In this document: positions 785-7,370 of the stretch, in pieces | Layout of the letters: each line of letters starts with the position of its first letter | Numbering within the stretch: position 1 is the stretch's first letter | IMG/VR virus record: IMGVR_UViG_2703718811_000008 | Coordinates: 1-7,370 of that record | Direction: 5' to 3' (one strand) | Length of the DNA stretch: 7,370 nt | From: a virus | Lineage: Duplodnaviria; Heunggongvirae; Uroviricota; Caudoviricetes | The notes under the pieces: model-generated | Database searches by the model: none | Told to the model about the DNA's origin: nothing | The model's input: the letters and a program-made list of their open reading frames with translations, nothing else | Position numbers and translations under genes: made by a program

Positions 785-807
785 TATACTGTCCCCATAA
801 TCCTCTA

Positions 808-882
<75 letters not shown>

Positions 883-883
883 A

Positions 884-960
884 TGGTGCGCCATACTGGA
901 TTCGAACCAGTGACCGATTGCTTAGAAGGCAATTGCTCTGTCCAACTGAGCTAACAGCGC
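884..960 (-). tRNA. tRNA-Arg (anticodon UCU, reads AGA), CCA encoded
   Basis: RC of 884-960 = GCGCTGTTAGCTCAGTTGGACAGAGCAATTGCCTTCTAAGCAATCGGTCACTGGTTCGAATCCAGTATGGCGCACCA. Canonical cloverleaf: D-arm GCTC/GAGC, anticodon stem ATTGC/GCAAT with loop CTTCTAA, T-arm ACTGG-TTCGAAT-CCAGT. Similar to but distinct from E. coli argU as recalled. Confidence 0.9.
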
Positions 961-964
961 TTCG

Positions 965-1038
965 TGCCCCTGCCATGTTTGAACCGGCGACCTGGCGGTT
1001 ATTAACCGCTCGCTCTGACCATTAGGGCTAAAGGGGCA
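965..1038 (-). tRNA. Degenerate tRNA-like element (possible pseudo-tRNA), no CCA encoded
   Basis: RC of 965-1038 = TGCCCCTTTAGCCCTAATGGTCAGAGCGAGCGGTTAATAACCGCCAGGTCGCCGGTTCAAACATGGCAGGGGCA. Perfect 7-bp acceptor-like stem TGCCCCT/AGGGGCA, T-loop-like GGTTCAAAC, anticodon-like loop TTAATAA (nominal AAU). But the D-stem has a mismatch, there are 3 nt between acceptor and D-stem, and the T-stem has a G-A pair. Sits 4 nt from tRNA-Arg. Confidence 0.35.
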
Positions 1039-1309
1039 ATAAGTTTCTTTAAAAACAGCATGCATATGCCTGCTATATAATCCATACTAACTTTTATTAA
1101 AAACAAATTCAACAAAATCAAGGTTAGCGATACTTCTTTATCTAATAGCAACATTAATTACTATTGTGTGATTTTGATGATACTCCCTATTAAAAAACTC
1201 TTCCATTAGCACAATGAGTGCTCAGCTATCTATTGAAATAAATGAGCACAAGAGGTATACATATCTCCACAGCAGACATTCTATCTAAAAGATCACAAAA
1301 ACAGACATC

Positions 1310-1657
1310 ATGATAAAAAATATTTTTATAATAATTTCAAGCATCCTCTGCATGGGGCTAATTGTGGAACATCCTCAAATCGACAGTGAAATATCGACAA
1401 ATGAAATAATCAATTGCCTTTCCAAGACAATTCAAGAAAGTGGTTATATAATGGATCTCAACGGCACCAAACCACCAATTAATGCAAAAGAATTCGCAAC
1501 ATATAGAATGTCAAAATACACCGGCTCATTCTGGATAGAGTATTCAACAGAAGGAAGACCAACAAGGAATGTTGGCATAATAAATGCAACAAATGATAAT
1601 TATAATACTTTGAATGATGCGTTACAATTTTGTATTAATAACATGACGAAATATTAA
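1310..1657 (+). CDS. Hypothetical small secreted or membrane-anchored protein (115 aa), AT-rich cargo gene
   Basis: ORF-track ORF; N-terminus MIKNIFIIISSILCMGLIV looks like a signal peptide or TM anchor; rest is hydrophilic and Asn/Thr-rich. Very AT-rich compared with the phage backbone. No strong SD before the ATG. No family recognised. Confidence 0.5.
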   Translation: MIKNIFIIISSILCMGLIVEHPQIDSEISTNEIINCLSKTIQESGYIMDLNGTKPPINAKEFATYRMSKYTGSFWIEYSTEGRPTRNVGIINATNDNYNTLNDALQFCINNMTKY

Positions 1658-1853
1658 CATCAACAATTAATATGTGTACATCCCCGTGAGCAAACCGTTC
1701 GTAATACCAGTGAGCAACAACAGCATGCGCTCCAACGTCTGAACGGCTTCGCCCATATGATATGGTTCAGCACATTAAAACGTTTACGCATCACGATTTC
1801 AATATCAGATGCCAGGCGATGTCCACAGAACAGGTAAAGACTTCCGGCTGGCT

Positions 1854-2013
1854 TTAACTACCCGACATAACGAGCTGGGTCAGTATTAACTGGCAGCGTT
1901 CGCGTGAAAGGTAAGTACTCTGCGCCATCTCCCCGACTGTCGCCGGGTCGTTAACACTTAATTCATTAAATAACACTCTGGCGGTTTCAGTCATATACGG
2001 CTGTTTCAGCATG
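1854..2013 (-). CDS. Small helix-turn-helix-like ORF (52 aa), possibly a truncated regulator remnant
   Basis: ATG at 2013..2011 with AGGGAAAAAG upstream; translation MLKQPYMTETARVLFNELSVNDPATVGEMAQSTYLSRERCQLILTQLVMSGS. The segment TVGEMAQSTYLSRERCQLILTQL has the pattern of an HTH recognition unit. The longer track ORF 1854..2195 is rejected because its extension contains a terminator hairpin. Confidence 0.35.
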
Positions 2014-2135
2014 TCTTTTTCCCTATTCCGGTTAACGTGACACACCAATAACTCTTGTCGAAAAAGCCAACAAGCTGAAAGACCGGTATTCACCACCACC
2101 AGCGCGTTTACTGAACTACTGAATGTTACAGACAT

Positions 2136-2165
2136 AAAAAAAGCCAGCCACAGGGGAAGGCTGGC
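2136..2165 (-). terminator. Rho-independent terminator (minus strand) downstream of the CPBP gene
   Basis: Stem GCCAGCC (2143-2149) / GGCTGGC (2159-2165), 9-nt loop; on the minus strand it is followed by T7 (RC of A-run 2136-2142). Confidence 0.55.
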
Positions 2166-2559
2166 AAACTCGTAGGGCAAAATGCTGTTACGCAAACTTC
2201 GTTACAGGGATATCCTGCAATACCTAAAATACACAACATTTAGACAACTACACAGTACCTCACTAAACTTTTAAGATTTTGTTATTAAATACAGTTATTC
2301 ACACTCTTACCTGATACGCAGTAATGCCCGTCTGGCCATGTAGAGTAACAACAGTCCGGGCAATGACAATCCATAGACACAAAAACCGCCCGCAGGTGGA
2401 TTTAGCAGTTTGGTACAGTAACCACTTTTAACATCATATTCTATAATTTACGTACGTAAATGCTTTACTACTCATTTTTAACCATTAATGGAGTGAATAT
2501 TATCCAGTGAGCCGTAAACCCCGTTCTTCAGGGCGTGGAGGATGTCAACAACAACATGT

Positions 2560-3378
2560 TCAATGATTTTTTAAGAATGGATAGGTAAAAAATAACAGGT
2601 GGCACAAATTCAACCCAAAATGAAAAAATGTAGCAACCCATAAGCGTCCACTAAACATCCATGCCATGCCATAAATCACTCCAGATAACATTGCAAACAG
2701 TACAAGTAACAAACCACCAGAATAATGATAAAGACCAAACAAAACTGAAGCGATAAACAATGCTACAAATGGATGTACAATCATAGAAAGACGCTGCTGA
2801 AGATATCCTCTGAAAAATGCTTCTTCAGCAAGAGAGACAAAAAACAAGTTGCTCAATATAAACTTTGGCAACCACTCCGGGAAATGAACCTCTGGTTTTA
2901 TTCCACCCAGTAAAACAGCTAAAACCAAAATAAATGGAACAGATAAAAAGAGCAAGGCCCACATTCCATAAGATACTTCGTACCTGAAATCGCTCTTAAA
3001 CAACCTGGGAAAAGATAACACCAATAAAAATGGCACCATGGCCTTATCAAAATTAAAATACATGGTGTATGGCGTACTAAACGGCCCGGTTATTACAGAA
3101 TTCAAAACCACAGGGTTATGAAAACCAGGCCAAAAGTGATATAGCAGCACAACAGATAATACAACTAAACAACTCTCCGTAACAATTCTACACCATGATT
3201 TCTGTGCCCACTTAACTTTTAACCAATACAATAGCCCAACGATTGTAAAGAGACCAAATGCCGGCCAATCTATAACTCCATTAGCGACACCCAAAACAAC
3301 AGATGCTATTAACAATAACAAAGAAAACAGTTTATATGCATTCAAACTTAGCAAGGATAAAGCCAGAACGCCCCACAT
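2560..3378 (-). CDS. CPBP-family (CAAX protease / Abi-type) intramembrane metalloprotease, 272 aa
   Basis: ATG at 3378..3376 with GGAGG about 6 nt upstream (RC of 3379-3395 = TTTTTGACGGAGGTTTT). Polytopic hydrophobic protein with the three CPBP motifs in order: EExxxR (AEEAFFRGY), FxxxH (FGLYHY), HxxxN (HFGLN). Gene is strongly AT-rich. Confidence 0.85.
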   Translation of the reverse strand: MWGVLALSLLSLNAYKLFSLLLLIASVVLGVANGVIDWPAFGLFTIVGLLYWLKVKWAQKSWCRIVTESCLVVLSVVLLYHFWPGFHNPVVLNSVITGPFSTPYTMYFNFDKAMVPFLLVLSFPRLFKSDFRYEVSYGMWALLFLSVPFILVLAVLLGGIKPEVHFPEWLPKFILSNLFFVSLAEEAFFRGYLQQRLSMIVHPFVALFIASVLFGLYHYSGGLLLVLFAMLSGVIYGMAWMFSGRLWVATFFHFGLNLCHLLFFTYPFLKNH

Positions 3379-3423
3379 AAAACCTCCGTCAAAAACAAAT
3401 CATCCCAAGATAACAATAACCAT

Positions 3424-3452
3424 TTATAATACAACTGTCATTTACAATGCAA
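3424..3452 (-). promoter_or_regulatory. Candidate sigma70 promoter for the CPBP gene (pR'-like late promoter or moron promoter)
   Basis: On the minus strand: -35 TTGCAT (3452..3447), 17-bp spacer, -10 TATAAA (3429..3424); about 45 nt upstream of the CPBP ATG, in the AT-rich Q-CPBP gap. Confidence 0.3.
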
Positions 3453-3495
3453 TGCTTACTACTCGTAAAAAATATAATAATAGTCAGAATCCTTC

Positions 3496-3519
3496 CTAGA
3501 TATTGCATGCAATATCTAG
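3496..3519. promoter_or_regulatory. Perfect 24-bp palindrome overlapping the Q stop codon; candidate protein-binding site
   Basis: CTAGATATTGCA|TGCAATATCTAG is exactly self-complementary; no U-tract on either strand, so not a classical terminator; overlaps the last Q codons and its TAG (3516-3518). Confidence 0.4.
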
Positions 3520-3884
3520 CATGCATCCATTTCCAGTGAAACATTAAGTGCCATTAACATCCCGTCAACAATACCCTCAGCCTTTTGAAGTTTTTTACCG
3601 ATATAACCATCCGAACAACCATGTTTTCTTGCCAAACTCATAAAAGTCATTCCAAATACGTAGTAATCAAGCAGCAATTCATGCAGTTCACTATTGTTCC
3701 GGTTCAGGCGCGCCATACACCCGCATATAATCATCGCGTCATCGTCACAACATTGCGGGCGGGATTTTATCTTTGCTGGAATAAGCCCCTTAAATCCGTT
3801 GGCAATAGACGACCATGTTACATCCTCATGGTTATTAGCTACCCATGCTCCCCAGTGTTCGAGAACCATCTGAATATCACGCAT
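3516..3884 (-). CDS. Late-gene antitermination protein Q (QuuD-like lambdoid Q family)
   Basis: ATG at 3884..3882 with GGAG 7 nt upstream; the track ORF starts 5 codons earlier at a TTG. Translation [34 protein letters not shown]...[16 protein letters not shown]... closely matches my recollection of E. coli DLP12 QuuD (YbcQ), including the Cys-rich zinc motif. Confidence 0.85.
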
Positions 3885-3901
3885 CAACTTTCTCCACAAA
3901 A

Positions 3902-4897
3902 TCAGGCCAGCACGCCAATTGCCAGCGCACGATCGATAAAACGAAATATCAGCTCCAGTTGGGAGCCATACTTTTCTTCAAATGCCACGGTATCCGCATG
4001 CAGCTCGTCGTGATGCTTTCTGCACAAAGGCAACACAAAAAGGTCATGCGCTTTTGTACCCATTCCACCCTGACCGTGGCCTATCAGGTGGTGGGGATCA
4101 TCAGCAGGCTTTCCACAACATGCACACGGCTGTGTCTTAACCCAGCGCGTGTACTTTTCATTAACCCAGCGGTGACGTTTTGGGCGTAACATAAAAGACT
4201 CCGGCGACTCCGGATCCACTTTCAGCGCCAGCACCTTTTTCGCTTTATCCTGGATGATGCTGGTGGCAGGAACCGAAGGAATAAGGTCACTTTCCCGGGT
4301 GACAGACGACACAACAGGCTTCGGTAATCTCAGTGCCTTACGGGCTGCACTTTCCGGTAAGGCATCCGCCAGGTCATTACGAACCAGCCACCAGCACAGT
4401 TCAGGCATTGTCACAACGTGACTATCATCAAAACCGAGATCCCGACGCACGACAGACAACACCCAGCGGGCACAGTTATCCGTTGCCATTGATTCCAGCC
4501 GTTCCGTGAACTGATCGCGCAGCTGGTTATCGCAGTGCCAGCACAGACGGATTGCGCCCGGCGCGTGTCGCATTGTGGTCATGTTCTCGCTGTGCCAGTC
4601 GGAATGAGGCCACTGGCAGCCTTTTTCACGAAGTAACCAGCTTTCAAGACATTCCACGCCACCAGCACGACGGATCACTGCCTCATTGCGGAACACGGCC
4701 CGAACGGCAGGATCATCCGCCAGCGGTTGTGATGCCGCCGGAACAGCACCACTGGCGAAAGATGAATAACGTTCCGGCTCAGGCTCCAGCAGGACACGCC
4801 CCTGCATAAACAGGGGCATCAGCTCTGAACCTGGCCTGAACAATACGATCCCCATACGCGGGGCAATTTCAGGGGTCAGTAGTGCTCTCACGGTCAC
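3902..4897 (-). CDS. DUF968-like prophage protein with C-terminal Cys/His (HNH-like zinc-binding) motif; YdfU-like position directly upstream of Q
   Basis: 331-aa ORF, stop TGA at 3902-3904. C-terminus [43 protein letters not shown] has C-x2-C...HH...PLC..HH...H spacing. Start uncertain: GTG at 4897, GTG at 4891 (better SD GAGG) or internal ATG. Confidence 0.75.
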
Positions 4898-4898
4898 C

Positions 4899-5708
4899 TC
4901 AATGAACGGTATCGAGCAGCTTTAACAGCTCAGGGAATCGGGATTCGAAGAAATGCGGCTGCGTCTCGCGCGGATTTGCGGGACTGGTGATGTTCTTGCC
5001 GAACATGCAGCCTTTCGCTGTCAGCGACCAGAATTTTTTGATGTTGTTAATCGCGGTACGGCTGTATCGTTCGCGCTGCTCGACGATCCCCAGCTTCACC
5101 ATCTGGTGATATGCCTGATTAGCCGTCAGGCGGATACCATACTGCTTCAGCAGTGCACTCAGTGACAGCGTAGGGCGACTTGAGCCATCGGGTGCATCGG
5201 CAGGAGCATCAATTGCATAGCGCGGAGCCAGATTCGGTAAGCCAACAGCCTCCTGGAGTTTCTGACAAGCCCCAAGCACAGATGAGTTAGACAGGTTTAA
5301 TTCCCGACGCATAAAGTCCAGCAGGATCACGCCAGCCTGCATCTTGTCAGCAGCCTGCCCGGATAATTTTTCCGGTGCGCTGGTTATCATATCGAAAGTA
5401 CGGATCACCTTCAGATGGAATGACGGGCTGATCCACATTGCATAGGCATACACCAGTTCTTTGCAGACATACGTCCCCTGGTTATTTCCGCCATTAATGA
5501 CGCTAACTGGTTGATTTTGTTCCAGAGGCGGAATTCCACCCTCGGTGAAAAGTTGTTCAATCAATTCACAGGTTTGCTTATTGGAGAGCCAGTATTTCGG
5601 GCGGTTTTTTTGTTCTCCCCCGGCTGCCCTGTGCAGATCGTTCAGGCTGTAACGCCCATAAGCATCACGACGAACTTCAATACCATCAATGACCATCAGA
5701 TTATTCAT
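4899..5708 (-). CDS. KilA-N domain protein (Roi / antirepressor-like), 269 aa
   Basis: ATG at 5708..5706 with AGGAG 9-10 nt upstream. N-terminus (VIDGIEVRRDAYGRYSLNDLHRA...GTYVCKELVYAYAMWISPSFHLKVI) matches the KilA-N/APSES pattern (GTWVHP..A..FA.WISPEF as recalled). Stop TGA at 4899-4901. Confidence 0.8.
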   Translation of the reverse strand: MNNLMVIDGIEVRRDAYGRYSLNDLHRAAGGEQKNRPKYWLSNKQTCELIEQLFTEGGIPPLEQNQPVSVINGGNNQGTYVCKELVYAYAMWISPSFHLKVIRTFDMITSAPEKLSGQAADKMQAGVILLDFMRRELNLSNSSVLGACQKLQEAVGLPNLAPRYAIDAPADAPDGSSRPTLSLSALLKQYGIRLTANQAYHQMVKLGIVEQRERYSRTAINNIKKFWSLTAKGCMFGKNITSPANPRETQPHFFESRFPELLKLLDTVH

Positions 5709-5727
5709 ACTTCGTTTCTCCTCTTAA

Positions 5728-5955
5728 TCAGGCGGCTGCACCCGCCGTTTTCTCGTACTTACTGATAGTGATCTCGACCTTCCCTCCCGGGATAACCGGT
5801 CCCCACTCCACCAGCATTCTTTTCACCTGACTGTCGTCTTCCCACACACCCGCGTGGGTCAGGGCGTCAAACAGCGCCTTGTTATAGTTGTCCAGATCGC
5901 GGATCCGGTTATCCCAGCATGGTTGCCACCTCCTGATTGGTTGGCGGAAAGCCAC
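5728..5955 (-). pseudogene. rusA: RusA Holliday-junction resolvase, C-terminal part only (5'-truncated)
   Basis: Frame translates to ...DNRIRDLDNYNKALFDALTHAGVWEDDSQVKRMLVEWGPVIPGGKVEITISKYE, matching the RusA C-terminal catalytic half (RRRDLDN...DALTKAGFWLDDAQV...GGRLELTITE as recalled). The frame is closed upstream, and the roughly 60 N-terminal residues expected for RusA are absent. The track's start is a GTG, and RusA-like sequence begins near 5915. Confidence 0.6.
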
Positions 5956-6019
5956 GCTCTTTCTGGTAAGAAATCAGCATATCCAGCACCTGCTGCTGGC
6001 ATTGAGTTAACGTCGTCAT
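5909..6019 (-). other. 36-codon ORF resembling the N-terminal start of a LexA-type DNA-binding domain; probable remnant at a mosaic junction
   Basis: ATG at 6019..6017 overlaps the TAA of the upstream gene (TAATG). Translation MTTLTQCQQQVLDMLISYQKERGFPPTNQEVATMLG aligns without gaps to LexA residues about 4-36 ([33 protein letters not shown], recalled), then hits TAA exactly where RusA similarity begins in the +1 frame. Confidence 0.3.
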
Positions 6020-6507
6020 TACGCCCCCACGTAATTCCCTGACAGATACCACTCATCACCCGATACAGCGCGCTTGCTGCTTTTCCGTAAACACTGCTCA
6101 CGACGCGCCAGAAAATTGTTTCGTTCTGGCTGGGAGTGGCTTTCACGGAATGCCGCCATCCACACGGTTGCAGCACGACGGTATAAGCCCCTGGACTCCA
6201 GTTCTTCAGCCTGGCGGGTCAGGCACAAAATCACCCGTGGATCGTTAGTGCCGACATAGAAATTGCGCACAGGTCTGGTTTCACGAACTGGTTGTGGTTC
6301 CGGCTCCTGCGCTCTCTCAGTCAGGCGCGGGAAATGTCTGCGTGTATCTCCTTCACAACGGTGAGCCACACGCCCACTCTGACGTAACTTGCTTGCTGAC
6401 TGCAGAACGCGCTGCCGTGAGTAACCTGCAAAAGCCTCCGCAATGTCTCCGGAAGTACACCCCGGATGGGCTTCAATGAATTTCTGAACGTCATTCAAAA
6501 GACTCAT
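6019..6507 (-). CDS. PerC-like transcriptional regulator with N-terminal winged-helix-like region (162 aa)
   Basis: ATG at 6507..6505 overlaps the TGA of the upstream replication gene (ATGA) and has GGGGGGG upstream. C-terminal LESRGLYRRAATVWMAAFRESHSQPERNNFLARREQCL matches the recalled PerC/Pch signature (LEARGLWRRAAARW...RRRKHCL). Confidence 0.65.
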   Translation of the reverse strand: MSLLNDVQKFIEAHPGCTSGDIAEAFAGYSRQRVLQSASKLRQSGRVAHRCEGDTRRHFPRLTERAQEPEPQPVRETRPVRNFYVGTNDPRVILCLTRQAEELESRGLYRRAATVWMAAFRESHSQPERNNFLARREQCLRKSSKRAVSGDEWYLSGNYVGA

Positions 6508-7370
6508 AATCCCCCCCTGAATCCTGCCGGGATCTGGCTGTAGTCCACGTTGTCGTAACTGGCTTTGAAGTACGGGTCTTCGCGTTTTTCGGTGTACGTG
6601 CTGACGGACGGCGATAAGCGCAGGGAAAGCTCATCCCATTTTTCCCGCAGCTTCGACGGGCTGAGCACGTTACGGCACCAGAACGGATCGCGACTGACGC
6701 GGCTGTACATCTCGCAGATTTGTTTATGAGTACGACCATCCTGCACACACATCAGGCGAATTTCGTTTGCCCAGGCTGTCCAGTTCGGTTCTTTGGGACG
6801 AACCACCTCGCCGTCACATTCGGCGGCATGCTCGTACAGGGCGATGATTTTTTTCCAGAGCCACTGTGCGCAGGTCAAATCATCCTGCGTCCCCCACTGG
6901 CGCTTTTTAGGACTGAATACAACCGCATCAGGATGGCGAGTTAAAAAATCCTGTTCAGCCGTCTGCGTGTCCGGTTGCGAAGCGTCCGGACGAGAAGTTT
7001 TTTTATCTGACGGATCATGTTTTGATTTTACTGACGGATCCCCACCAGATTCTGACGGGTGAAAACCCGCTTTTTTGCCAGATTTCGACGCATCAAATTT
7101 TGACGGGCCAGATTTTGATGCGTCAGATTTTGACGGGTCAGAATCTGACAGTTGAGAAAATGCCGCTGCCTGAAGCTTCGCAACGTTAAGCTGATAAACA
7201 TTCGACGCATTGCGGTTACCCTGGCGACGCGCCTTACGCGTTAACCAGCCTTCTGCTTCCAGCCGTGCGATAGCCGTTCTGACGGTACTCATCCCCGCGC
7301 CAATCTGGCGGGCAATGGTTTCAATTGATGGCCAGCACACACCTTTGAACCGCCCCGGAAATCCTGGAGA
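6504..7370 (-). CDS. Phage replication initiation protein (O-like; winged-helix N-terminal domain, repeat-encoded linker), 5' end beyond window
   Basis: Frame is open to the right edge (the track's start at 7340 is a GTG, not a true start). The N-terminal CWPSIETIARQIGAGMSTVRTAIARLEAEGWLTRKARRQGNRNASNVYQL fits the wHTH pattern of replication initiators. An internal Ser/Asp/Lys-rich low-complexity linker is encoded by the tandem DNA repeats. Position is upstream of a nin-like region and Q. Confidence 0.7.
   Translation of the reverse strand, partial: SPGFPGRFKGVCWPSIETIARQIGAGMSTVRTAIARLEAEGWLTRKARRQGNRNASNVYQLNVAKLQAAAFSQLSDSDPSKSDASKSGPSKFDASKSGKKAGFHPSESGGDPSVKSKHDPSDKKTSRPDASQPDTQTAEQDFLTRHPDAVVFSPKKRQWGTQDDLTCAQWLWKKIIALYEHAAECDGEVVRPKEPNWTAWANEIRLMCVQDGRTHKQICEMYSRVSRDPFWCRNVLSPSKLREKWDELSLRLSPSVSTYTEKREDPYFKASYDNVDYSQIPAGFRGGL
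7081..7155. repeat. Five direct 15-bp tandem repeats (iteron-like), with three looser copies at 7001-7060
   Basis: GATTTCGACGCATCA / AATTTTGACGGGCCA / GATTTTGATGCGTCA / GATTTTGACGGGTCA / GAATCTGACAGTTGA at exact 15-bp spacing. The core TGACGGGTCA is a TGAC/GTCA inverted repeat. Extra TGACGG copies at 7008, 7032 and 7053 flank an AT-rich patch (6996-7030). Confidence 0.8.

What the first reader, a model, noticed from the sequence alone, without database searches (positions are those of the whole stretch)
3902..5708. KilA-N/Roi-like and DUF968-like Cys/His gene pair immediately upstream of Q
Two tightly packed genes (stop and start 1-2 nt apart) fill the position just before Q: a KilA-N DNA-binding protein with an antirepressor-like C-terminus, and a 331-aa protein whose C-terminus carries an HNH-like zinc motif. 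The DUF968-like protein's function is unknown and its start codon is ambiguous. HNH-like proteins here may act in recombination or DNA processing.
Basis: partly seen in the sequence, partly recalled or inferred. Interest (0 to 1): 0.35.

Follow-up and report, generated by a model that had tools for sequence, protein, structure and literature searches.

The report
Prophage KilA-N and DUF968 nuclease genes
These are two ordinary, already-annotated genes of E. coli/Shigella lambda-like prophages, a KilA-N DNA-binding protein and a DUF968 zinc-dependent HNH-type nuclease sitting just before the late-gene switch Q; their families are known but nobody has yet tested what they do.

Summary
The two minus-strand genes are real and the family calls are correct. 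Residues 7-110 of the 269-aa protein match KilA-N (E=3e-27). The second protein matches DUF968 (E=1e-81) and carries an intact HNH/His-Me finger motif (C258, C261, H269/H270, D285, C292, H295, H296, H300).

- **Prevalence:** near-identical proteins occur in thousands of E. coli, Shigella and Salmonella prophages, including SfV orf44/orf45. A 2017 survey already placed DUF968 with YbcO in the His-Me finger superfamily.
- **Start codon:** the DUF968 start is the second GTG (4891), giving 329 aa. The gaps to the neighbouring genes are 7 and 17 nt, not 1-2.
- **C-terminus of the KilA-N protein:** it is not detectably antirepressor (ANT) or Roi-like. It resembles Roi only by position.
- **N-terminal half of the DUF968 protein:** residues 1-161 match no Pfam family. 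They carry a second conserved zinc site (C94, H/C102, C119, C/H122) and are found almost only in Enterobacterales.
- **Synteny in 80 relatives:** the downstream gene is almost always a Q antiterminator, from any of three Pfam Q families. The upstream gene is usually (62%) a Roi-, KilA-N- or ORF6N-type protein. RusA lies nearby in 50 of 80. NinB and NinG were never found.

Most likely this is a nin-region recombination or DNA-processing nuclease with a DNA-binding neighbour. Interest is low.

The parts
4899..5708 (-). Gene for the 269-aa KilA-N domain protein (ATG 5708, stop TGA 4901-4899)
   Evidence: ORF. Pfam KilA-N E=2.9e-27 over residues 7-110. PHROG 129 E=3e-128. 3779 homologues found.
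5379..5690 (-). KilA-N DNA-binding domain (residues 7-110)
   Evidence: Pfam PF04383, 95 bits against a cut-off of 23.8. AF2 pLDDT is 82-92 over most of this stretch.
4902..5186 (-). C-terminal domain of the KilA-N protein (residues 175-269). It is unclassified and predicted to be winged-helix-like, not ANT.
   Evidence: No Pfam hit at E<=10. hhalign against ANT gives probability 1-2%. The AF2 model shows helix-helix-beta-hairpin elements with pLDDT 80-92. The best Foldseek PDB matches are winged-helix DNA binders, but E>=0.13.
4894..4900 (-). Shine-Dalgarno-like GAGGTGA for the DUF968 gene, overlapping the KilA-N stop codon
   Evidence: Sequence read. Purine-rich runs sit at the same distance upstream of the conserved start in 80 relatives.
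3902..4891 (-). DUF968 gene, corrected start GTG 4891-4889, 329 aa, stop TGA 3904-3902
   Evidence: All 49 aligned homologues start at MRALL. The same codon is GTG in 40, ATG in 27 and TTG in 5 of the 72 relatives scored by script. PGAP annotates 329 aa in the closest genome.
4328..4714 (-). N-terminal/central domain of the DUF968 protein (residues about 62-190 of the 331-aa ORF numbering). It lies largely outside any Pfam model and is predicted to be helical plus a beta-beta-alpha zinc knuckle.
   Evidence: No Pfam hit for residues 1-165 at E<=10. AF2 pLDDT is 74-92 here, with strands 106-111 and 114-119 followed by helix 120-126. Only 180 cluster representatives among 1.84 billion match residues 3-161 at E<=0.001.
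4532..4618 (-). Predicted second zinc site: C94, H102, C119, C122
   Evidence: In 21 relatives at 26-51% identity: C94 in 21/21, position 102 is H in 14 and C in 5, C119 in 21/21, position 122 is H in 12 and C in 9. The position equivalent to a catalytic His (111) is not conserved.
3914..4414 (-). Stretch matched by Pfam DUF968 (residues 162-328)
   Evidence: PF06147, E=1.4e-81, 273 bits.
3998..4126 (-). His-Me finger (HNH) core. Zinc ligands C258, C261, C292, H295. Predicted catalytic H270. D285, H296, H300.
   Evidence: Invariant in 50 close homologues and conserved in 17-21 of 21 divergent ones. HNHc_6 28.5 bits and RecA_dep_nuc 15.8 bits. YbcO (PDB 3g27) is the only PDB sequence hit with a related fold. 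hhalign to HK022 YbcO gives probability 59%, E=9e-5. Foldseek BFVD E=9e-6 to 1e-3 against short DUF968/HNH proteins.
3516..3884 (-). Q antiterminator gene (ATG 3884), 17 nt downstream of the DUF968 stop
   Evidence: Pfam Phage_antitermQ E=7e-52; the profile begins at residue 6 of the TTG-started ORF. PGAP annotates 122 aa in L001.
5728..5914 (-). Remnant of rusA (C-terminal part only), upstream neighbour of the pair
   Evidence: Pfam RusA matches profile positions 76-123 only. A 413-bp deletion relative to L001 is shown by blastn.

Best explanation
The pair is a standard module of the 'nin' (early-right) region of lambdoid prophages of E. coli, Shigella and Salmonella. The early-right transcript reads through both genes into Q (inferred from gene order, tight spacing and a promoter/terminator scan that found no more sites than shuffled sequence).

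**Gene 1 (269 aa).** A DNA-binding protein with three parts: an N-terminal KilA-N domain, a helical middle section, and an unclassified C-terminal domain predicted to be winged-helix-like. It occupies the slot that Roi-type (Rha+ANT) or ORF6N-type proteins fill in related phages.

**Gene 2 (329 aa, DUF968).** A protein with two zinc sites.
- The N-terminal part carries a conserved, probably non-catalytic zinc knuckle (C94, H/C102, C119, C/H122). It most likely serves DNA binding or assembly.
- The C-terminal part is a His-Me finger (HNH) nuclease domain stabilised by zinc (C258, C261, C292, H295). H270 is predicted to be the general base. D285, H296 and H300 are predicted to hold the catalytic metal.

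**Most likely role (inferred, not shown).** It nicks or cleaves DNA, acting on recombination or replication intermediates alongside RusA. In this it would parallel lambda Rap (NinG) and P1 Ref in their phages.

Family identity is essentially certain. The nuclease chemistry is inferred from conserved residues. The substrate and biological role are inference from synteny and from distant relatives.
For: **Family identity:** Pfam and PHROG matches.

**Conserved active site:** the catalytic and zinc residues are invariant in 50 homologues. They are kept in 17-21 of 21 relatives at 26-51% identity.

**Fold:**
- Foldseek BFVD gives probability 1.0 against short viral DUF968/HNH proteins.
- YbcO (3g27) is the only related PDB sequence hit.
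- hhalign to HK022 YbcO gives probability 59%, pairwise E=9e-5.

**Literature:**
- DUF968 and DUF1364 together form His-Me finger group 7, with RusA, Q and antirepressor genes as neighbours (PMC5714182).
- YbcO is linked to P1 Ref and HNHc_6 (PMC4999995).

**Synteny in 80 Enterobacterales loci:**
- Among 73 downstream ORFs, 38, 19 and 13 match the three Pfam Q families and 12 match DUF1133.
- 48 of 78 upstream ORFs are Roi-, KilA-N- or ORF6N-type, and 43 of those lie within -10 to +28 nt of the DUF968 start.
- RusA lies within 4 kb in 50 of 80. NinG, NinB, NinH and NinI were found in 0 of 80. Conversely, 80 NinG loci contain no DUF968, YbcO or RusA.
- The same three-part KilA-N protein precedes DUF968 in 13 loci, out to Gilliamella at 37% identity.
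- HK022 has Roi followed, with a 1-nt overlap, by a YbcO-type protein, then RusA, then Q.
Against: - No experiment exists for any DUF968 protein. Searches for DUF968 and ydfU found only bioinformatic mentions.
- The AF2 model is of moderate quality (pLDDT 70), and Foldseek against PDB found nothing significant (best hit Cap5, an HNH nuclease, E=0.9).
- The matches to characterised nucleases are weak. RecA_dep_nuc scores 15.8 bits, below its cut-off. NinG gives no match (hhalign probability 1.6%).
- The NinG comparison set is made of near-identical lambda-type genes, so the mutual exclusion may reflect module linkage rather than functional replacement.
- RusA is broken in this window while the pair is intact, so the pair does not need RusA for its own maintenance.
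- Two divergent relatives (P0324, P0337) have lost the catalytic histidines but keep the N-terminal domain.
Confidence: 0.6

Rival explanations
1. Two-component targeted nuclease. The variable upstream DNA-binding protein (KilA-N, Rha+ANT or ORF6N type) binds a specific site and recruits or licenses the DUF968 nuclease. The nick or cut could start rolling-circle or recombination-dependent replication at the early-to-late transition, or could damage host or competitor DNA.
For: - 62% of upstream neighbours belong to this protein class despite unrelated domains.
- Their stop codons mostly overlap or abut the DUF968 start, suggesting translational coupling.
- The same KilA-N family is co-inherited with DUF968 out to 37% identity.
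- HK022 Roi overlaps a YbcO-type gene by 1 nt.
Against: - 38% of loci have a methyltransferase, RusA or another gene upstream instead.
- In DLP12, by recall and not checked here, ybcO is preceded by ninE.
- Tight packing is general in the nin region.
- There is no evidence of physical interaction.
Confidence: 0.15
2. DUF968 is mainly a non-catalytic zinc-finger DNA-binding or regulatory protein, for instance one that modulates Q-dependent late transcription. On this view the HNH motif is structural.
For: - It is adjacent to Q whichever of three Pfam Q families is present.
- Two divergent members lack the catalytic His residues but keep the N-terminal domain.
- The N-terminal zinc domain has no catalytic-type conserved His.
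- PMC5714182 lists one member of this group annotated as a transcriptional regulator.
Against: - H270, D285, H296 and H300 are invariant in 50 close homologues and kept in 17-20 of 21 distant ones. That degree of conservation is hard to explain for a purely structural role.
- The nearest families (HNHc_6, Ref, YbcO) are nucleases or predicted nucleases.
Confidence: 0.13
3. Phage-borne defence or superinfection-exclusion nuclease, or a toxin, carried as a moron.
For: - HNH domains are common effectors in defence systems. The best PDB fold match, though not significant, is CBASS Cap5.
- The KilA-N protein has a weak PADLOC hit to candidate PDC-S22 (E=1e-6, 37 residues).
Against: - No PADLOC hit for DUF968.
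- GC content is typical of the phage backbone (49-58%), unlike the low-GC moron downstream of Q.
- It holds a fixed position inside the early operon in 80 loci.
Confidence: 0.05
4. Selfish homing HNH endonuclease, or a terminase-associated packaging HNH.
For: Both are common roles for phage HNH proteins (PMC12315714 cites Kala et al. 2014).
Against: - It holds a fixed syntenic slot next to Q rather than a sporadic one.
- There is no intron or intein context.
- It is far from terminase. A relative (L003) carries a separate PF01844 HNH gene next to its terminase.
Confidence: 0.03

Closest known systems
DUF968 family (PF06147): E. coli Qin prophage YdfU and Shigella phage SfV orf45 / SfII homologues
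   Same: Full-length homology. The PGAP-annotated protein in the closest E. coli genome found and the 9520-member cluster representative are 98% identical; SfV is 97% identical at the DNA level. The position directly upstream of Q is the same.
   Different: Nothing essential. The window copy differs by a few residues. Neighbouring rusA is truncated here.
YbcO / DUF1364 (PF07102; PDB 3g27), DLP12 and HK022
   Same: Same His-Me finger subgroup (group 7 of PMC5714182). The G-x-G-T-K...D-L...C-x-x-C/H-H-D-E motif aligns. Same nin-region setting near RusA and Q. In HK022 it is directly preceded by Roi.
   Different: YbcO is 96 aa and consists of the HNH core only. The window protein has about 230 extra N-terminal residues with a second zinc site. 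YbcO has Asp where this protein has H300.
Phage lambda Rap (NinG, PF05766)
   Same: An HNH-type, structure-specific endonuclease encoded in the nin region upstream of Q. NinG and DUF968 never co-occur in the 160 loci examined.
   Different: No detectable sequence relationship (no Pfam hit; hhalign probability 1.6%). Rap travels with NinB/Orf, whereas DUF968 travels with RusA.
Phage P1 Ref (RecA_dep_nuc, PF16786) and Gram-positive phage Orf-HNH fusions (HNHc_6, PF16784)
   Same: These are the nearest Pfam families to the HNH core after DUF968 itself. Both are linked to recombination (PMC4118853, PMC4999995).
   Different: Ref scores below its cut-off (15.8 against 26.9 bits). HNHc_6 matches only the HNH part of its profile (positions 123-184 of 204), and no Orf-like N-terminal domain was detected.
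HK022 Roi and other KilA-N / Bro-N / Rha / ORF6N modular 'antirepressor-type' proteins
   Same: A modular DNA-binding protein of similar size in the same slot before a group-7 HNH gene and Q.
   Different: Roi is Rha-N plus ANT-C. The window protein is KilA-N plus an unclassified C-terminal domain. There is no sequence similarity and no ANT match.

Membership tests
Pfam DUF968 (PF06147) | HMM score above the curated gathering threshold | tested here: met
   273 bits against a cut-off of 27.8, E=1.4e-81, profile positions 2-171 of 171.
His-Me finger / HNH superfamily | Beta-beta-alpha metal fold | tested here: inconclusive
   The AF2 model (pLDDT 70) has strands followed by helix 293-301. Foldseek BFVD matches short DUF968/HNH proteins at E=9e-6 to 1e-3, probability 1.0. 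Foldseek against solved structures is not significant (Cap5 E=0.9). Model coordinates could not be inspected.
His-Me finger / HNH superfamily | Conserved catalytic His at the end of the first strand, plus a metal-binding residue on the helix | tested here: met
   H270 aligns with the His of YbcO that PMC4999995 superimposes on the catalytic His. H270 is kept in 18/21, H300 in 17/21 and D285 in 20/21 divergent relatives. All are invariant in 50 close ones.
His-Me finger / HNH superfamily | Structural zinc site formed by two Cys/His pairs flanking the core | tested here: met
   C258 in 21/21, C261 in 19/21, C292 in 18/21 (plus one His), position 295 is C in 13 and H in 5. This is sequence evidence only; metal content was not measured.
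His-Me finger / HNH superfamily | Metal-dependent nuclease activity | not testable with these tools
   Needs purified protein. No published assay was found.
Pfam KilA-N (PF04383) | HMM score above the gathering threshold | tested here: met
   95.1 bits against a cut-off of 23.8, residues 7-110.
ANT / KilAC antirepressor C-terminal domain (PF03374) | HMM or profile match in the C-terminal half | tested here: not met
   No Pfam hit at E<=10 for residues 112-269. hhalign against an ANT alignment built from 29 Roi-type neighbours gives probability 1-2%. Both alignments were shallow, so a very remote relationship is not excluded.
Roi (HK022) orthologue | Sequence homology to HK022 Roi (Rha-N plus ANT-C) | tested here: not met
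   BLASTP E=7.5. The domain composition differs.
NinG / Rap (PF05766) | HMM or profile match | tested here: not met
   Absent from hmmscan at E<=10. hhalign of A1 against lambda NinG gives probability 1.6%.
Orf-HNH fusion (HNHc_6, PF16784) | Orf-like N-terminal domain plus HNH, matched across the whole profile | tested here: not met
   Only profile positions 123-184 of 204 match, at 26.8-28.5 bits against a cut-off of 26.6. Residues 1-165 have no Pfam hit. Lambda Orf (1PC6) is not among the Foldseek PDB hits.
YbcO / DUF1364 (PF07102) | HMM match to the family | tested here: inconclusive
   PF07102 is not reported by hmmscan. The YbcO chain 3g27 is among the top PDB sequence hits in all three searches and the sole hit in the third, but E=0.16-1.2. 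hhalign gives probability 59%, E=9e-5 over 37 columns. This is a sister family, not membership.

The most novel reading that the evidence does not exclude
The conserved, translationally coupled slot is: an interchangeable KilA-N, Rha+ANT or ORF6N DNA-binding protein, then the two-zinc-site DUF968 nuclease, then Q of any family. On the most novel reading this is a two-part, site-directed nicking system that acts at the early-to-late transition. The DNA-binding partner would choose the site and the HNH domain would make the nick. That nick could start rolling-circle or recombination-dependent replication of lambdoid phages that lack the NinB/NinG set.
Probability: 0.07. Interest if true: 0.7.

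Novelty: already known. Interest (0 to 1): 0.2.

Why it matters
DUF968 is one of the commonest uncharacterised prophage genes in E. coli, Shigella and Salmonella. One 90%-identity cluster alone holds 9520 sequences, and 4696 of 5426 complete E. coli genomes match the 2.7-kb query spanning this pair and its neighbours.

It sits directly upstream of Q, the gene that controls late transcription, in relatives that include Stx-converting phages.

Knowing whether it is a recombination nuclease, and whether it works with its DNA-binding neighbour, would fill a gap in the lambdoid 'nin' region. It could also bear on prophage induction and recombination between prophages.

As a sequence finding it is ordinary. 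Both families are named, the HNH nature is published, and nothing about this copy is unusual.

Tried and rejected
- **N-terminal zinc knuckle as a degenerate duplicate of the C-terminal HNH.** hhalign of the N part against the C part on both alignments gives probability 0.2-1.2%. There is no match to YbcO either. Rejected at the sequence level. Only the predicted beta-beta-alpha topology and the ligand spacing resemble an HNH.
- **Orf/NinB-like N-terminal domain, as in Gram-positive 'DUF968' proteins (PMC4118853).** No Pfam match, no PDB sequence match and no Foldseek hit to lambda Orf.
- **Stand-alone N-terminal domain.** Ten 199-264-aa hits were scanned. In seven, the DUF968 match runs to or near their C-terminal end, so they are truncated fragments; three gave no Pfam hit.
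- **P0304 (2334 aa, 21 matched stretches).** This is a repeat protein whose weak matches add up. Spurious.
- **The search for related loci with the divergent alignment A3.** It failed because no stretch was conserved enough. A1 was used instead.
- **Internal promoters or terminators in 2000-6200.** Counts are no higher than in shuffled sequence.
- **NCBIfam.** No model matches either protein.
- **Literature.** No experimental paper on DUF968/YdfU, and none on YbcO nuclease activity, was found in the searched library.
Full report
**1. What is in the window**

All relevant genes lie on the minus strand. In order of transcription they are:
- a helix-turn-helix replication-type protein (6504-7340);
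- a PerC-like protein (6019-6507);
- fragments of a LexA-like gene and of rusA (5728-6052);
- the 269-aa KilA-N protein (4899-5708);
- the DUF968 protein (3902-4897 as a maximal ORF);
- Q (PF06530, E=7e-52);
- then a low-GC stretch with a CPBP/Rce1-type protease and two tRNA genes.

The 2.7-kb stretch spanning the pair matches 4696 of 5426 complete E. coli genomes. It also matches 266 phage records, including Shigella phages SfV and SfII and many Stx-converting phages. In those records the two genes are annotated as 'KilA-N domain-containing protein' or 'transcriptional regulator', and as 'DUF968 domain-containing protein' or 'HNH endonuclease'.

**2. Checking the observation**

Both ORFs are real genes.
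- The first matches KilA-N at E=2.9e-27, residues 7-110.
- The second matches DUF968 at E=1.4e-81, residues 162-328, and just clears the HNHc_6 cut-off.
- PHROGs gives full-length matches.

- All 49 aligned homologues begin M-R-A-L-L, at residue 3 of the maximal ORF.
- In 80 relatives from the genome collection that codon is GTG, ATG or TTG. The sequence upstream is unrelated between loci but carries a purine-rich ribosome-binding run.
- The gene therefore starts at GTG 4891 and encodes 329 aa, as PGAP annotates it. GAGGTGA overlaps the upstream stop codon.
- Q starts at ATG 3884.
- The gaps are 7 and 17 nt, not 1-2 nt.

**3. The DUF968 protein: C-terminal part**

The C-terminal part carries the motif C258-x2-C261 ... 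H269-H270 ... K282-x-H284-D285 ... C292-x2-H295-H296 ... H300.
- These residues are invariant in 50 homologues at 68-98% identity.
- They are kept in 17-21 of 21 relatives at 26-51% identity. Position 295 alternates between Cys and His, as a metal ligand would.
- After DUF968, the nearest Pfam families are HNHc_6 (28.5 bits, just above its cut-off) and RecA_dep_nuc, the family of P1 Ref (15.8 bits, below its cut-off).
- YbcO (3g27) is the only solved structure picked up by sequence with a related fold. It was found in three searches, at E=0.16-1.2.
- hhalign against the HK022 YbcO-type protein gives probability 59% and pairwise E=9e-5.
- The AlphaFold model is moderate (pLDDT 69.9).
- Foldseek finds nothing significant among solved structures. 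The best match is the HNH nuclease Cap5, E=0.9.
- Foldseek does match short viral DUF968/HNH proteins at E=9e-6 to 1e-3 with probability 1.0.

This agrees with the literature. Jablonska et al. place DUF968 and DUF1364 (YbcO) together as His-Me finger group 7 and list RusA, Q and antirepressor genes as neighbours (PMC5714182). Kaur and Subramanian link YbcO to P1 Ref and HNHc_6 and predict that it is a nuclease (PMC4999995).

**4. The DUF968 protein: N-terminal part**

- Residues 1-161 match no Pfam family even at E<=10.
- A search of 1.84 billion cluster representatives finds only 180 relatives of this part. The full-length matches carry it at the N-terminus of proteins of about 320-370 aa.
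- Of ten shorter hits scanned, seven are truncated DUF968 proteins and three gave no Pfam hit. None shows a stand-alone version.
- In the divergent alignment C94 and C119 are invariant. Position 102 is His or Cys in 19 of 21. Position 122 is His or Cys in 21 of 21.
- The model places these around two strands (106-111, 114-119) and a helix (120-126), with pLDDT 74-92.

I read this as a second structural zinc site. The position that would hold a catalytic His (111) is not conserved, so it is probably not catalytic. It shows no sequence relationship to the C-terminal HNH, to YbcO or to lambda Orf. I found this domain neither in Pfam nor in the papers I read. It is a modest addition, not a new kind of system.

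**5. The KilA-N protein**

- Only the N-terminal domain is classifiable.
- The C-terminal half has no Pfam match and no profile similarity to the ANT domain.
- The model suggests a helical middle section and a winged-helix-like C-terminal domain. The Foldseek matches to winged-helix DNA binders are not significant (E>=0.13).
- HK022 Roi, read from the HK022 genome, is Rha-N plus ANT-C and is unrelated in sequence.
- 'Roi-like' and 'antirepressor-like C-terminus' therefore do not hold as homology. They hold only as position and general build.

**6. Neighbourhood**

I examined 80 loci from Enterobacterales, at 37-98% identity to the window protein, using mechanical ORF calls.
- Downstream, 73 ORFs were scanned. 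Hits were PF06530 in 38, PF03589 in 19, PF06323 in 13 and DUF1133 in 12.
- Upstream, 48 of 78 ORFs are Roi-type (29), this KilA-N family (13) or ORF6N-type (6). Of those, 43 lie within -10 to +28 nt of the DUF968 start, often with overlapping stop and start codons.
- The remaining upstream neighbours are mostly DNA methyltransferases or RusA.
- The complete three-part KilA-N protein accompanies DUF968 in 13 loci, out to Gilliamella.
- In HK022, Roi overlaps a YbcO-type gene by one base, followed by RusA and Q.
- RusA lies within 4 kb in 50 of the 80 loci. NinB, NinG, NinH and NinI were found in none. Conversely, 80 NinG loci hold no DUF968, YbcO or RusA.

One caveat applies. The NinG loci are all at least 98% identical to lambda NinG. 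The exclusion may therefore reflect linked mosaic modules rather than functional replacement.

**7. Interpretation**

The best-supported reading is an ordinary early-operon pair: a DNA-binding protein, and a zinc-stabilised His-Me finger nuclease that most likely processes recombination or replication intermediates.
- The family identities are shown.
- The nuclease chemistry is inferred from conserved residues.
- The substrate and role are inferred from synteny and from distant characterised relatives (Rap, Ref).

Rival readings:
- a partner-directed nuclease;
- a non-catalytic regulator, supported by the fixed adjacency to Q and by two relatives that lost the catalytic histidines;
- a defence function, with no PADLOC support for DUF968;
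- homing or packaging roles, which the fixed position and a separate terminase-linked HNH gene in a relative argue against.

**8. Novelty and score**

Both families are named, the HNH classification is published, and near-identical proteins are annotated in thousands of genomes. I found no experimental work on DUF968 or YdfU.

The contributions here are the resolved start codon, the second zinc site, the quantified synteny, and the correction of the 'antirepressor/Roi' label.

Verdict: already known, low interest (0.2). A low-probability but testable idea remains, that the pair forms a two-part directed nuclease acting at the early-to-late switch.

Noticed in passing
window 5728-6052 (junction 5906-5914): rusA and the adjacent LexA-like gene are both broken. 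Relative to E. coli OkiPb01678, 413 bp are missing. The deletion joins the C-terminal part of rusA to the first 47 codons of the LexA-like gene, in different reading frames, with 9 nt shared at the junction. The prophage therefore lacks a working RusA while the KilA-N, DUF968 and Q genes are intact.
   Followed up: partly
window 6016-6019: A second deletion of 646 bp, relative to the same E. coli genome and to SfV, removes the N6-adenine methyltransferase (dam) gene between the PerC-like and LexA-like genes.
   Followed up: partly
window 7046-7158: Six iteron-like direct repeats with a 15-nt period (CAGATTTTGACGGGT-like) lie inside the helix-turn-helix replication-protein gene. This looks like a lambda-style origin embedded in the initiator gene.
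   Followed up: partly
window 800-3400: A low-GC (33-38%) stretch lies downstream of Q. It holds a CPBP/Rce1-type intramembrane protease gene (2560-3378, minus strand), an orphan 115-aa ORF with a hydrophobic N-terminus (1310-1657, plus strand), tRNA-Arg(tct) at 884-960 and tRNA-Gly(tcc) at 808-882. It looks like acquired cargo between Q and the lysis genes. The closest genome also annotates methyltransferase pseudogene fragments here.
   Followed up: no
P0324 and P0337 (relatives found, aligned): Two divergent DUF968 relatives have lost the HH dyad, the glycine-rich loop and the last histidine of the HNH motif, yet keep the N-terminal zinc domain. This hints that the N-terminal part has a function of its own.
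   Followed up: no
L003 4737-5002 (Phytobacter relative): Where the upstream ORF6N gene lies about 260 nt away, the sequence reads TGA immediately before the GTG start of DUF968. This suggests that an uncalled short reading frame ends there and that translational coupling is kept. The frame itself was not checked.
   Followed up: no
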